Source of the DNA: Escherichia phage ekra
Sequence record: MN850644.1
Length of the DNA: 64,000 nucleotides
Reading direction: 5' to 3' (one strand)
The notes under the pieces are model-generated. The model saw nothing but the letters and a program-made list of their open reading frames with translations, ran no database searches and had not been told where the DNA came from. The translations under genes were made by a program, and so were the position numbers. Positions 29,933 through 40,459 of the stretch are shown one piece after another (position 1 is the stretch's first letter; each line of letters opens with the position of its first letter).

Positions 29933-37930
<7,998 letters not shown>

Positions 37931-37931
<1 letters not shown>

Positions 37932-38170
37932 TACATTTTTCCTGCTCTTCTAAGTTCGTTGTAAGCAATTTCCTCTTTATACGACCTCTGAATTTCAAGA
38001 AATTGTCTCAATGATAATAAATCAGAGAATGTCATAGCAAAGAGTTGGTCAAGTGTTTCTTTACACCCTTCCATACCATAAATAGCAAGCACAAATTTCA
38101 TCTCGTCTGCTTCTTCATAGGTTGCCTCTACAGCAGCATCAGTTAGTGGTGTCTGTAGAGTGTTACCCAT
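37931..38170 (-). CDS. tail assembly chaperone, frameshift-extension ORF (GT-like)
   Basis: 79-aa ORF in -1 frame relative to 38173..38571; frame is open back to the slippery site. Confidence 0.4.
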
Positions 38171-38172
38171 GT

Positions 38173-38571
38173 TTACTGAGAAGTTAGGCTTTTGAAAATG
38201 CTTGCTTCGAAAAAACTTCCGAAGTTTGCCTCCAGCGCAAATGCTAAGTAATCAATAAATTCACCATAGTTTGCTTGGAAGTATGTATCAATATTAAGTG
38301 GGAAGTCATCAACAGTTGCCCCTTGAAATAACAGGGTAGCCATTTCTTCAAGGTTGATTTCTTCAATTCTGTCAAAACAAGCTTCAACAAGTTCTTTAAA
38401 TGGAACCATTGGAGCTTCTTTCTTATCTTTATCAGTCAGACTTGATAGCATCTGTGCAAAAGTTGGAACAACAATTTTACCCAACTTCATAGACATCTTA
38501 ATACCATCTCTTGCCCCAAGCAGAACGATATTTACTTTCTTACCATTAATTACTCTAGATTCTGTTTTCAT
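38173..38571 (-). CDS. tail assembly chaperone (G-like)
   Basis: 132-aa ORF directly upstream of tape measure; contains U UUU UUC slippery heptamer near 3' end. Confidence 0.45.
   Translation of the reverse strand: MKTESRVINGKKVNIVLLGARDGIKMSMKLGKIVVPTFAQMLSSLTDKDKKEAPMVPFKELVEACFDRIEEINLEEMATLLFQGATVDDFPLNIDTYFQANYGEFIDYLAFALEANFGSFFEASIFKSLTSQ
38209..38215 (-). other. putative -1 programmed ribosomal frameshift slippery site UUUUUUC
   Basis: Minus-sense GGA AGU UUU UUC GAA in the 0 frame of ORF 38173..38571; -1 frame is open from here into ORF 37931..38170. Confidence 0.45.
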
Positions 38572-38597
38572 TGTGATTCCTTAATACTTTTAAAAGA

Positions 38598-38633
38598 AAC
38601 AAAAAAGGGGAAGACCTTTTAAAGTCTCCCCCT
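38598..38633 (-). terminator. terminator-like hairpin with U-run after tail tube gene
   Basis: GGGGAAGAC / GTCTCCCCC stem, T-run in minus sense (rc of GAAACAAAAAA). Confidence 0.45.
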
Positions 38634-38644
38634 TATAGGATTTA

Positions 38645-39091
38645 TTAAACACTTGACGCTGGAATTGTTGAAGTGTAGTCTAGCTTCTCACAACCAAAAA
38701 TCCAAGTTTTAGAGTTCTGGTCACGACCAAGTTCAATCTGTGGTAATTCCTGCAACCAAGCATTAATACCAGTTGCCAGAACAGAGCCTGATGGGTCGTA
38801 GATTACGAAGTTAGAAGAGATATCTTCTTCAAGTTCCATATTGTCTTGTTTAGCTTGAATTGCAGAAAGCATCTGGTTAGAGAGAGAAGTCTGCATTAGC
38901 TCAATCTCAATAGTACCTGTCTTGTCTGCATTTCGTGTCAGAGCAACCTGACCACCTGCACCAACAACTGGTGTCACAAGTGGTGATGTTCTCTGTAGAC
39001 GCAAGAATGAGTCTGGAGCAAAGCCTTCAATAGCAATGCCGTTCCAGCTACATACAACGTCTTTAGGGGAATATTGCTGATACATAGCCAT
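38645..39091 (-). CDS. tail tube protein
   Basis: 148-aa ORF immediately downstream of the sheath gene; myovirus sheath-tube order. Confidence 0.5.
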   Translation of the reverse strand: MAMYQQYSPKDVVCSWNGIAIEGFAPDSFLRLQRTSPLVTPVVGAGGQVALTRNADKTGTIEIELMQTSLSNQMLSAIQAKQDNMELEEDISSNFVIYDPSGSVLATGINAWLQELPQIELGRDQNSKTWIFGCEKLDYTSTIPASSV

Positions 39092-39106: not shown

Positions 39107-40459
39107 TTATTCGTAAGCCACTGTACCTTTCAAGTCAACATCCAAGATAGCCCCTGCTAAGATACCTGCGAAGGTAACATCTTTCAGGATACGTGCTTTC
39201 TTGTCTGCTAAAGCAACTTGAGAGGCTTTAGGAACATTAACTGTGTAAGATGACAGGAAGTTTCTGTTGACTGCTCTTTGCAGAGAGGTTTCAATGACTT
39301 GACGAATACGGGTAATACCAGTATCATCATAAGTAATCTTACCACCCTTCTGGTTAATTAGCAAGTCTCTCAGAGAAGTTTTCAGGTCTGATTCTAACCA
39401 GTCAACACCACGGACGATATCAATCCATTCCCCACCAGAAGTAATCCCTCTACGAACCACTGGAACACCACCATCAAGGTCAATAAAGTTACAGTGACGT
39501 ACATCTAAAGCAGACTTCTGAATACTTGTCAGAGGTCTCTGATTAGATGGTTGTAGAGAAGCTGCTACGCCAGTTAGCTGAGCATTACCCCAAGCAATTG
39601 AGCCTGCATCATATGGAGCACCATAAGCAATGTATGCCATCTCTGGATAATCTTCTGCTGCTGCGTGATGCCACAAGCAAACTGTACGAGTGTACATATT
39701 CTTAGCAAGCTGTGCTGGAACATCATTTGCACTGGCTAATTCTGTACCTTGTAGGGCTGTTACATCGGAGTTAGCCGTAAAGAAGATTTTCTTACGAGCC
39801 TGAATCTCAGAAGCCATTGCTAAGACAAACTGTTGAGTTCTGTCTTCTGCTGCAATGAAATACCAGTCAGTAGAGTAAGCTTCGATAGCTGCCAGAGCAG
39901 TTGCTGCTGTATCAGCAGTTGTACTTGCAATATATACAGTCTGTGCTGTGGTTGTTACTTTCACAAAGTCATTATCACCAGCTTTGGTAATAATCATTGT
40001 GGCAGAGCCATTGCTACCAGTTACATTCACAGAAACCTTATCTTTGATTGTTGGGTCAGCTTCAATCTGTGTTTTAAACTGTTGCAACACTACCTCAGCA
40101 GTGTCTGAATCTTGTGCTGTGTACTGGTATGGTTGAGAAATTCCACCGCCAACAGCTACAGTAATTGAGTAGTCTGTACTTTCGGTAACGGCATCAGGAA
40201 TTGATACAGTGTACTGCATAGCGCGTCTACCGATATAAAGCTGAGTTACTTTAGGAGTCTGACTCCAAAGTTGTTTAGCAGCCTTATATGCAGCAGTATT
40301 CTCATCGAAATCTTCAGCAACTTCAGTTAAGGAAGTGTAACCACGCACTCTTTCTTCAAAGTTATCTGTTGAAGCTAAGAATAGTGGCAAACCAAAACCT
40401 TCTCTTGTAGTTCCTGCGGTGTTCAATGTAATATCTACATTAACAATTGGATTCCACAT
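39107..40459 (-). CDS. contractile tail sheath protein
   Basis: 450-aa ORF followed by tube gene; size and position. Confidence 0.55.
   Translation of the reverse strand: MWNPIVNVDITLNTAGTTREGFGLPLFLASTDNFEERVRGYTSLTEVAEDFDENTAAYKAAKQLWSQTPKVTQLYIGRRAMQYTVSIPDAVTESTDYSITVAVGGGISQPYQYTAQDSDTAEVVLQQFKTQIEADPTIKDKVSVNVTGSNGSATMIITKAGDNDFVKVTTTAQTVYIASTTADTAATALAAIEAYSTDWYFIAAEDRTQQFVLAMASEIQARKKIFFTANSDVTALQGTELASANDVPAQLAKNMYTRTVCLWHHAAAEDYPEMAYIAYGAPYDAGSIAWGNAQLTGVAASLQPSNQRPLTSIQKSALDVRHCNFIDLDGGVPVVRRGITSGGEWIDIVRGVDWLESDLKTSLRDLLINQKGGKITYDDTGITRIRQVIETSLQRAVNRNFLSSYTVNVPKASQVALADKKARILKDVTFAGILAGAILDVDLKGTVAYE

What the first reader, a model, noticed from the sequence alone, without database searches (positions are those of the whole stretch)
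37931..38571. Canonical -1 frameshift site (UUUUUUC) joining the two tail chaperone ORFs
On the minus strand the 0-frame codons AGU UUU UUC lie ~45 nt before the stop of ORF 38173..38571. A -1 slip opens a frame that runs without stops into ORF 37931..38170, giving a fusion of roughly 210 aa. This is the conserved G/GT-type programmed frameshift found upstream of tape measure genes in many tailed phages, and it supports the tail-module assignment.
Basis: partly seen in the sequence, partly recalled or inferred. Interest (0 to 1): 0.4.

Follow-up and report, generated by a model that had tools for sequence, protein, structure and literature searches.

The report
Known tail-chaperone −1 frameshift, Felix O1-like phage
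This is the ordinary, already annotated programmed −1 ribosomal frameshift (U UUU UUC) that lets a Felix O1-like phage make a short and a long tail-assembly chaperone from two overlapping genes in front of its tape measure gene.

Summary
On the minus strand the 0-frame codons AGU UUU UUC (heptamer 38215-38209) lie 12 codons before the stop of ORF 38173-38571. The −1 frame runs without stops into ORF 37931-38170, which predicts a 213-aa fusion.

The window is a Felixounavirus, 99% identical to several E. coli phages. The gene order is sheath, tube, terminator, chaperone G, T, tape measure. G matches Pfam Phage_TAC_15 and T matches phrog_4963.

The heptamer, in the same frame and with an open −1 frame, is present in every relative examined. 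These range from near-identical phages to Kolesnikvirus, Hafnia, Yersinia and Pectobacterium phages at about 40% identity, and to a Vequintavirinae phage at 26%. Third-codon-position identity peaks exactly at the site. The ATG of T has no Shine-Dalgarno sequence and is not conserved.

No stimulatory RNA structure lies at the canonical 5-9 nt spacing. A clade-specific hairpin lies about 40 nt downstream.

The frameshift is already annotated as a joined CDS in Salmonella phage Meda (same genus) and in Citrobacter phage Moogle. It is also described in the Moogle, Michonne and Mijalis genome announcements. No experiment on this lineage was found.

The parts
38173..38571 (-). Gene G: tail assembly chaperone, 132 aa, the product of standard translation
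   Evidence: ORF. Pfam PF21822 Phage_TAC_15 at E 1.2e-19, 71.5 bits against a cut-off of 22. phrog_1613 'tail assembly chaperone' at E 7.9e-49. The Shine-Dalgarno duplex upstream of its ATG is -6.1 kcal/mol.
38209..38215 (-). Slippery heptamer U UUU UUC in X XXY YYZ phase (0-frame codons AGU UUU UUC = residues 119-121)
   Evidence: Read directly. It is the only canonical in-frame heptamer in G. It is present in phase in every related locus examined except CL1, which has seven T. In E. coli, Sharma et al. 2014 place U_UU.U_UU.C within the efficient class H_HH.U_UU.Y and report it in IS elements (PMC4066793).
37931..38209 (-). -1 frame read after the slip: a 13-codon linker (RSKHFQKPNFSVN) plus the 79-codon T ORF and its stop. 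The TAA overlaps the tape measure ATG (TAATG).
   Evidence: Translation. phrog_4963 'tail assembly chaperone' at E 2.8e-55 for the T part. On the fusion, phrog_3840 aligns through the junction, residues 1-151 against profile positions 6-157 of 158; on G alone it reaches only profile position 136.
37931..38571 (-). Whole G-T recoding unit, giving the predicted 213-aa GT fusion
   Evidence: The same fusion, 99.1% identical, is encoded as a single ORF in phage CL1, whose record has one extra T.
38186..38226 (-). Block of extreme nucleotide conservation: the heptamer plus the following CGAAGCAAGCAUUUUCAAAA, read in both frames
   Evidence: This is the only stretch that blastn aligns with Kolesnikvirus phages, at 92.7% over 41 nt, although the proteins are about 41-43% identical. 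Third-codon-position identity is 0.91-0.95 at fusion residues 117-128, against a mean of 0.63.
38229..38233 (-). GGAGG 13 nt 5' of the heptamer: a possible Shine-Dalgarno-like stimulator (inference only)
   Evidence: Sequence. It is present in the Felixounavirus, Mooglevirus and Wc4-1 loci. It is replaced by GGAGA, GGAAG, AGAAG or nothing in Suspvirus, Yersinia, Hafnia, Kolesnikvirus and CR8. It also lies in a weak hairpin that the terminator scan picked up.
38116..38171 (-). Clade-specific hairpin beginning 38 nt 3' of the heptamer, with the ATG of T in its base. It is too far away to be a canonical frameshift stimulator.
   Evidence: MFE -24.5 kcal/mol, z -2.4. z is -3.4 to -4.3 in Felixounavirus, Suspvirus and L030, and -1.9 in Moogle. 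The RNAalifold consensus on 5 sequences has 4 pairs with compensatory changes. It is absent in more distant relatives.
35724..37931 (-). Tape measure protein gene immediately downstream
   Evidence: phrog_4036 at E 0 and Pfam PF20155 TMP_3 at E 2.4e-16.
38645..39091 (-). Tail tube-like virion structural protein gene immediately upstream, itself preceded by the sheath gene at 39107-40459
   Evidence: phrog_280 and Pfam PF11681 for the tube; phrog_205 'tail sheath' at E 4e-122 for 39107-40459. The homologue is annotated 'tail tube protein' in Erwinia phage Omen.
38595..38634 (-). Intrinsic terminator between the tube gene and G
   Evidence: 13-pair stem followed by TTTTGTTTCT. It is annotated as a terminator in phage Meda.

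Best explanation
This is the tail-assembly-chaperone recoding site of a Felix O1-like myophage (genus Felixounavirus). Most ribosomes translate G (132 aa) to its stop. A minority slip back one base while the two tRNA-Phe occupy UUU UUC (38214-38209), re-pairing with UUU UUU. They then read CGA onward in the -1 frame and produce a 213-aa GT protein: the first 121 residues of G, a 13-residue linker, and the 79-residue T domain. By analogy with lambda gpG/gpGT and P2 E/E+E', G and the G part of GT would coat the tape measure protein encoded immediately downstream. The T part would recruit the tube protein. The frameshift frequency would set the G:GT ratio, and neither protein would end up in the virion. 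What is shown here: the site, its phase, the open -1 frame, the family assignment, the gene order, the conservation of the site and the lack of an independent start for T. What is inferred: that ribosomes actually shift, at what frequency, and the chaperone roles.
For: The heptamer is in X XXY YYZ phase 12 codons before the G stop, and the -1 frame is open through T. G is Pfam Phage_TAC_15 and phrog_1613/3840; T is phrog_4963; the tape measure gene is directly downstream and the tube and sheath genes are upstream. The heptamer and the open -1 frame (94-96 codons, 125 in CR8) are conserved in every locus examined, apart from CL1 (seven T) and L033, whose contig ends inside T. These include Mooglevirus, Suspvirus, Kolesnikvirus, Hafnia, Yersinia and Pectobacterium phages and the Vequintavirinae phage CR8. 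Nucleotide and third-position conservation peak at the site. The ATG of T has no Shine-Dalgarno sequence: +0.6 kcal/mol against -5.1 to -9.6 for nine neighbouring genes. That ATG is absent or displaced in relatives, while conserved T residues lie upstream of any start. A joined CDS noted 'Tape measure chaperone frameshift product' is annotated in Felixounavirus Meda, 98.3% identical here, and a joined chaperone CDS in Moogle. The -1 frameshift is stated in PMC4319497, PMC4591319 and PMC5543628. Heptamers of the H_HH.U_UU.Y type, which includes U_UU.U_UU.C, are among the efficient -1 motifs in E. coli (PMC4066793). The general G/GT mechanism is reviewed in PMC5009743.
Against: I found no experimental demonstration of the fusion or of its necessity for any Ounavirinae phage. 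No stimulatory RNA structure lies at the canonical 5-9 nt spacing in the window or in eight divergent relatives (z from -1.2 to +1.5). There is no consensus structure across ten relatives. The frequency therefore cannot be predicted and may be low. Most GenBank records annotate two separate genes. In one genome the heptamer alone is only about a 1-in-10 chance event.
Confidence: 0.88

Rival explanations
1. G and T are two independently translated genes, as most database records annotate them. T would be initiated at its own ATG (38170), perhaps by termination-reinitiation because that ATG lies 2 nt after the G stop (UAAACAUG).
For: An ATG opens a 79-codon ORF 2 nt after the G stop. Most Felixounavirus records list two CDS. 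Reinitiation could coexist with frameshifting in this genus.
Against: The ATG has no Shine-Dalgarno sequence: +0.6 kcal/mol, against -5.1 to -9.6 for neighbouring genes. It is predicted to be base-paired in the hairpin at 38171-38116. It is not conserved: Moogle, L030/L032, Kolesnikvirus, Hafnia, Yersinia and Wc4-1 lack it or have their first Met far inside the conserved T domain. This model does not explain why the heptamer, its phase and the stop-free -1 overlap are kept down to 26% identity, nor the peak of third-position conservation.
Confidence: 0.05
2. The fusion is made by transcriptional slippage. RNA polymerase would add one extra U in the run of six, producing an mRNA that encodes GT directly. 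The protein product would be identical to the ribosomal one (…GSFFRSK…).
For: The site is a homopolymer, and an mRNA with seven U encodes exactly the predicted fusion, as the CL1 DNA record with seven T shows. Protein mass spectrometry could not tell the two routes apart.
Against: From general knowledge of bacterial transcriptional slippage, productive sites are runs of about 8-9 or more A or T, so six is short. The run is exactly six T followed by C in every relative, never longer. No seven-T version occurs in IMG/VR. The motif is a proven ribosomal -1 motif in E. coli.
Confidence: 0.05
3. The T-run has no recoding role. It is either a chance heptamer or the U-tract of a weak intrinsic terminator, formed with the hairpin at 38235-38219 followed by AAGUUUUUUC.
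For: The terminator scan flags the site: 6 pairs, 3 of them G-C. About 0.1 in-frame heptamers are expected by chance in the permissive stretch.
Against: The scan expects 0.9 such hits by chance in this 1.4-kb region. The stem sequence is not kept in Kolesnikvirus, Hafnia or CR8, whereas the heptamer is. A terminator inside G, ahead of the tape measure gene, would block expression of essential downstream tail genes. Chance cannot explain conservation in phase in all relatives.
Confidence: 0.02

Closest known systems
Tape measure chaperone frameshift of Felix O1-like phages, as annotated in Salmonella phage Meda (MH586731, Meda_064/065) and Citrobacter phages Moogle, Michonne and Mijalis
   Same: Same genes, same position and same heptamer. 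Meda is 98.3% identical over the 641 nt and carries a joined CDS noted 'Tape measure chaperone frameshift product'. Moogle has AAGTTTTTTCGAGGCAAGC and a joined chaperone CDS. The genome announcements state a -1 translational frameshift.
   Different: Nothing of substance. In the window the 0-frame stop is 12 codons after the A-site slip codon, against 15 in Moogle, and the window has an ATG in the T frame that Moogle lacks.
Phage lambda gpG/gpGT programmed -1 frameshift (Levin, Hendrix & Casjens 1993; Xu, Hendrix & Duda 2004, 2013, 2014; reviewed in PMC5009743)
   Same: An overlapping ORF pair directly upstream of the tape measure gene. [quoted passage not shown] In the window no downstream stimulatory structure was found, and to my recollection lambda needs none either.
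   Different: Lambda is a siphovirus and uses G GGA AAG (Gly/Lys tRNAs); this is a contractile-tailed phage using U UUU UUC (two Phe tRNAs). The match to lambda G was not tested. The family hit here is Pfam Phage_TAC_15, and no solved structure is detectable by sequence.
Phage P2 E / E+E' tail chaperone frameshift (myovirus example in the Xu et al. 2004 set; P2-type efficiency noted in PMC5009743)
   Same: A contractile-tail phage with the order sheath, tube, chaperone pair with -1 frameshift, tape measure. To my recollection P2 also slips on a T-rich heptamer.
   Different: P2 was not compared here, and no sequence relationship was tested. The P2 heptamer identity is from memory, not from a tool result.
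E. coli dnaX and IS3/IS911-type -1 frameshift signals
   Same: The heptamer class works in E. coli: U_UU.U_UU.C is used by IS elements. A GGAGG lies 13 nt 5' of the site, within the 10-14 nt range in which, to my recollection of Larsen et al. 1994, a Shine-Dalgarno-like sequence stimulates -1 shifting.
   Different: dnaX and the IS elements have a strong 3' hairpin or pseudoknot at 5-9 nt, and none is present here. The GGAGG is not conserved in distant relatives.

Membership tests
G/GT-type tail assembly chaperone programmed -1 frameshift (Xu, Hendrix & Duda 2004) | Two overlapping or abutting ORFs lie between the major tail (tube) gene and the tape measure gene, on the same strand | tested here: met
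   On the minus strand: tube 38645-39091, G 38173-38571, T 37931-38170, tape measure 35724-37931.
G/GT-type tail assembly chaperone programmed -1 frameshift (Xu, Hendrix & Duda 2004) | [quoted passage not shown] | tested here: met
   U UUU UUC at 38215-38209, with its A-site codon 12 codons before the stop. It is the only such heptamer in G.
G/GT-type tail assembly chaperone programmed -1 frameshift (Xu, Hendrix & Duda 2004) | The shifted frame is open from the slip site to the end of the second ORF | tested here: met
   92 sense codons after the slip. The T frame is open from 38251.
G/GT-type tail assembly chaperone programmed -1 frameshift (Xu, Hendrix & Duda 2004) | The second ORF lacks its own translation start signals | tested here: met
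   No Shine-Dalgarno sequence: +0.6 kcal/mol against -5.1 to -9.6 for neighbouring genes. The ATG is not conserved in relatives.
G/GT-type tail assembly chaperone programmed -1 frameshift (Xu, Hendrix & Duda 2004) | The slip site and the two-frame arrangement are conserved among relatives whose proteins have diverged | tested here: met
   All loci have it in phase, down to 26% identity; the exception is CL1, which has seven T. Third-position identity is 0.91-0.95 at the site against a mean of 0.63.
G/GT-type tail assembly chaperone programmed -1 frameshift (Xu, Hendrix & Duda 2004) | The fusion protein is actually made at a low fixed ratio to G, and both are needed for tail assembly | not testable with these tools
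   This needs a reporter assay, Western blot or mass spectrometry, plus phage genetics. The searches found no such data for Ounavirinae.
Pfam PF21822 Phage_TAC_15 (tail assembly chaperone) | Score above the curated gathering threshold over most of the model | tested here: met
   71.5 bits against a cut-off of 22; residues 9-124 align to model positions 1-124 of 127.
Stimulated -1 PRF signals (dnaX / IS3 / viral type) | A stable hairpin or pseudoknot starts 5-9 nt 3' of the heptamer | tested here: not met
   The first 59 nt 3' of the site fold at -3.4 kcal/mol, z +1.2. z ranges from -1.2 to +1.5 in nine phages. There is no consensus structure and no Rfam family. Pseudoknots were not searched explicitly.

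The most novel reading that the evidence does not exclude
The roughly 20-nt stretch immediately 3' of the heptamer (CGAAGCAAGCAUUUUCAAAA, 38208-38189) is nearly invariant across Ounavirinae genera whose chaperones are only about 40% identical, and it is predicted to be unstructured. It might be more than a dual-coding by-product. It could act as a linear, structure-independent stimulator of the shift, for example through mRNA-rRNA pairing, through the nascent FFRSKHF/FFEASIF peptide, or through a back-up U_UUC slip site at 38197-38194. The clade-specific hairpin about 40 nt downstream might add to this by pausing a leading ribosome. Dual-frame coding constraint explains the conservation equally well and is the more likely reading.
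Probability: 0.12. Interest if true: 0.35.

Novelty: already known. Interest (0 to 1): 0.1.

Why it matters
It matters mainly for annotation. It confirms the tail-module assignment of this window. It also shows that most Felixounavirus records, which list two separate 'hypothetical' or 'chaperone' genes, should carry a joined GT product, as Meda and Moogle already do. Felix O1-like phages are widely used for Salmonella and E. coli typing, biocontrol and therapy, so correct structural-gene annotation has some practical value. The comparative result adds a small point of interest. The same U UUU UUC heptamer is kept from Felixounavirus to a Vequintavirinae phage at 26% identity, apparently without a canonical 3' stimulator. 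That would make the lineage a clean system for studying unstimulated, low-level -1 frameshifting in enterobacteria.

Tried and rejected
- **Downstream stimulator at canonical spacing.** I folded the 59 and 99 nt 3' of the site. I also computed shuffled z-scores for three segment choices in nine divergent phages. Nothing significant lies within about 70 nt, apart from the distal hairpin in the Felixounavirus/Suspvirus/Mooglevirus clade.
- **Consensus structure.** RNAalifold on ten divergent relatives gave 0 pairs. On five close-clade sequences it gave a 21-pair hairpin with 4 covarying pairs. I judged this too distal, and based on too few sequences, to call a frameshift stimulator.
- **Rfam.** A scan of 37800-38700 at E up to 1 returned only three chance-level hits, all far below gathering score.
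- **Intrinsic-terminator reading of the T-run.** I rejected this reading (with the conservation data).
- **Seven-T variant.** It was searched in IMG/VR to see whether the fused ORF of CL1 is a natural allele. There were no hits.
- **Exact look-up of the predicted fusion in the protein collection.** It is not present. Only the 213-aa CL1 protein is, and it is clustered with the 132- and 79-aa proteins.
- **Solved structures and NCBIfam.** PDB sequence search and NCBIfam gave nothing.
- **Literature.** A search for 'Felixounavirus' + frameshift + 'tail assembly chaperone' found no paper. The relevant papers use 'FelixO1-like' and 'tape measure chaperone'.
- **Not run.** I judged the large protein searches and structure prediction unnecessary.

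Full report
**Observation**

The minus strand of 38220-38173 reads GGA AGT TTT TTC GAA GCA AGC ATT TTC AAA AGC CTA ACT TCT CAG TAA. The phase is fixed by the ATG at 38571, since 351 nt = 117 codons separate it from 38220.

- The heptamer T TTT TTC occupies 38215-38209 in X XXY YYZ phase.
- The two Phe codons are residues 120 and 121 of the 132-aa ORF 38173-38571.
- After a -1 slip the next codon is CGA (38209-38207).
- That frame runs for 92 sense codons, passes in frame through the ATG at 38170, and ends at the TAA at 37933-37931.
- The predicted fusion is 121 + 92 = 213 aa.

The T frame is open upstream only to 38251, so a slip has to occur within a 76-nt stretch. In-frame heptamers of canonical shape occur at 0.0038 per codon in the window's ORFs of at least 120 aa. 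About 0.1 would be expected in that stretch by chance, so the single-genome observation is only weakly significant. The weight comes from comparison with relatives.

**What the locus is**

The 1-kb region is 98.6-99.6% identical to dozens of Escherichia, Shigella and Salmonella phages of genus Felixounavirus, subfamily Ounavirinae. The minus-strand gene order is:

| Feature | Coordinates | Evidence |
|---|---|---|
| Tail sheath | 39107-40459 | phrog_205, E 4e-122 |
| Tube-like structural protein | 38645-39091 | phrog_280, Pfam PF11681 |
| Intrinsic terminator | stem 38634-38605 | |
| G | 38173-38571 | Pfam PF21822 Phage_TAC_15, 71.5 bits against a cut-off of 22; phrog_1613, E 8e-49 |
| T | 37931-38170 | phrog_4963 'tail assembly chaperone', E 3e-55 |
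| Tape measure protein | 35724-37931 | phrog_4036, E 0; Pfam TMP_3 |
| Dit-like protein | 34924-35724 | Pfam PF21821 |

On the fusion, phrog_3840 aligns through the junction, to profile position 157 of 158. On G alone it stops at position 136. This suggests that some members of that family read across the junction.

**Comparative test**

I collected 45 related loci from GenBank phages and IMG/VR and scanned 42 of them, plus the window, for the site.

- Every locus but one has G TTT TTT C in the same phase, about 120-144 codons into the chaperone ORF.
- The 0-frame stop follows 11-35 codons later.
- The -1 frame stays open for 94-96 codons, or 125 in CR8, ending at or just before the tape measure start. 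In L033 the contig ends inside T.
- The set includes Mooglevirus and Suspvirus (about 70-81% protein identity), Kolesnikvirus phiEa21-4 and Hafnia, Yersinia and Pectobacterium phages (about 40-47%), and the Vequintavirinae phage CR8 (26%).

The exception is phage CL1. Its record has seven T and therefore a single 213-aa ORF that is 99.1% identical to my predicted fusion. No seven-T version exists in IMG/VR, so this is probably a homopolymer error.

At the DNA level, the only segment that blastn can still align between the window and Kolesnikvirus phages is 38226-38186. That segment is the heptamer plus about 23 nt on its 3' side, and it aligns at 92.7%. In a codon alignment of eight divergent fusions, third-position identity is 0.91-0.95 at residues 117-128, against a mean of 0.63. 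That is the signature expected of a recoding site followed by a stretch read in two frames.

**Does T have its own start?**

The ATG at 38170 has no Shine-Dalgarno complementarity: +0.6 kcal/mol, against -5.1 to -9.6 for nine neighbouring genes. It is predicted to be paired in a hairpin. It is also not conserved. Moogle, L030/L032, Kolesnikvirus, Hafnia, Yersinia and Wc4-1 lack an ATG there, and in several the first Met lies well inside the conserved T domain. Independent translation of T is therefore not the conserved mode of expression. Some reinitiation in Felixounavirus itself cannot be excluded.

**Stimulatory elements**

- The 59 nt 3' of the heptamer are unstructured: -3.4 kcal/mol, z +1.2.
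- In nine divergent phages no segment starting 3 nt after the site is significantly structured; z ranges from -1.2 to +1.5.
- RNAalifold finds no consensus structure in ten relatives, and Rfam has no match.
- A hairpin at 38171-38116 begins 38 nt after the heptamer. It is significant in the Felixounavirus, Suspvirus and L030 sequences (z -3.4 to -4.3) and has a few compensatory pairs among five sequences. It is too far from the site to act at the ribosome's entry channel, and it is absent in more distant relatives.
- A GGAGG (38233-38229) lies 13 nt 5' of the site. To my recollection of Larsen et al. 1994, that is within the spacing at which Shine-Dalgarno-like sequences stimulate -1 shifting in E. 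coli dnaX. Synonymous codons remove it in Hafnia, Kolesnikvirus and CR8.

The site therefore looks like a lambda-type, essentially unstimulated slippery sequence. Sharma et al. 2014 place H_HH.U_UU.Y heptamers among the efficient -1 motifs in E. coli. They list U_UU.U_UU.C among those with more than 0.1% shifting without stimulators, and they find it in IS elements (PMC4066793).

**Mechanism and rivals**

The best explanation is ribosomal -1 slippage of the two tRNA-Phe on U UUU UUC, giving G and a minor GT. The roles follow the lambda model reviewed in PMC5009743: G and the G part of GT bind the tape measure protein, and T recruits the tube protein.

Transcriptional slippage would give an identical protein and cannot be excluded by sequence alone. 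However, six T is short for that mechanism, and the run is never longer in any relative. The terminator-like pattern that the scan reports at the site is at chance level and its stem is not conserved.

**Comparison with what is known**

This exact frameshift is already on record.

- Salmonella phage Meda (Felixounavirus, 98.3% identical here) carries a two-piece CDS noted 'Tape measure chaperone frameshift product'.
- Citrobacter phage Moogle carries a two-piece chaperone CDS over the same heptamer.

Most other records, including Felix O1 itself, list two separate ORFs. I found no experimental test in this lineage.

**Verdict**

The feature is already known, and interest is low. The only mildly open questions are whether the invariant 3' block or the distal hairpin modulates the shift, and whether the seven-T allele of CL1 is real.

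Noticed in passing
L039 (OK040806.1, Escherichia phage CL1) 801-1442; corresponds to window 38215-38209: The CL1 record has seven T instead of six at the slip site. G and T are therefore one 213-aa ORF, 99.1% identical to the predicted GT fusion and annotated 'tape measure chaperone'. The seven-T version has no match in IMG/VR. It is probably a homopolymer sequencing error; otherwise it would be a GT-only mutant.
   Followed up: partly
window 38634-38595 (-): A strong intrinsic terminator lies between the tube gene and the chaperone gene: a 13-pair stem AAGGGGGAGACTT/AAGGTCTTCCCCTT followed by a T-tract. It probably lowers expression of the chaperones and tape measure relative to sheath and tube. 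It is annotated as a terminator in phage Meda.
   Followed up: partly
window 38171-38116 (-): A stable hairpin (z about -3.4) begins 38 nt 3' of the heptamer and encloses the ATG of the T ORF. It is conserved, with a few compensatory changes, in Felixounavirus, Suspvirus and Mooglevirus, but not in more distant Ounavirinae. Its function is unknown. It might suppress internal initiation or pause ribosomes.
   Followed up: partly
window 38235-38219 (-): A weak hairpin, CTGGAG-GCAAA-CTTCGG, lies immediately 5' of the T-run and was flagged by the terminator scan. It contains a GGAGG 13 nt upstream of the heptamer, which could act as a Shine-Dalgarno-like frameshift stimulator. It is not conserved in distant relatives.
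   Followed up: partly
window 38197-38194 (-): A second, weaker slip-prone motif, U_UUC (0-frame AUU UUC), lies 12 nt after the heptamer inside the invariant block and would feed into the same T frame. In Yersinia phage P778 the equivalent is C UUU UUC.
   Followed up: no
L003 (LR597658.1, Escherichia phage VpaE1_ev108) 1-3001: The annotation of this record is out of register with the genes. The sheath is called 'Ad1 adapter protein', the tube 'Ne1 neck protein', G 'Hc1 head closure protein', T 'Tc1 tail completion protein' and the tape measure 'Tail sheath protein'. Salmonella phage SUT_S820 likewise calls T a 'head closure protein'.
   Followed up: no
hits H69 (GU169904.1) and H123 (MG065664.1); protein P0007: Felix O1-like sequence at 96-97.5% identity appears in records named Staphylococcus phage SA1 (147 kb) and Campylobacter phage A132. 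It also appears as a 'Staphylococcus hyicus' protein, WP_252560994.1. These hosts are implausible for this phage group, which suggests contamination, chimeric assembly or mislabelling.
   Followed up: no
L005 (EU710883.1 phiEa21-4) 1269-1506; L041 (MN270892.1 Wc4-1) 1623-1859; L045 (PP278848.1 Omen) 711-948: In several distant relatives the T region is unannotated, or split into small spurious ORFs, because it has no start codon of its own. The conserved heptamer predicts a GT fusion there too.
   Followed up: partly
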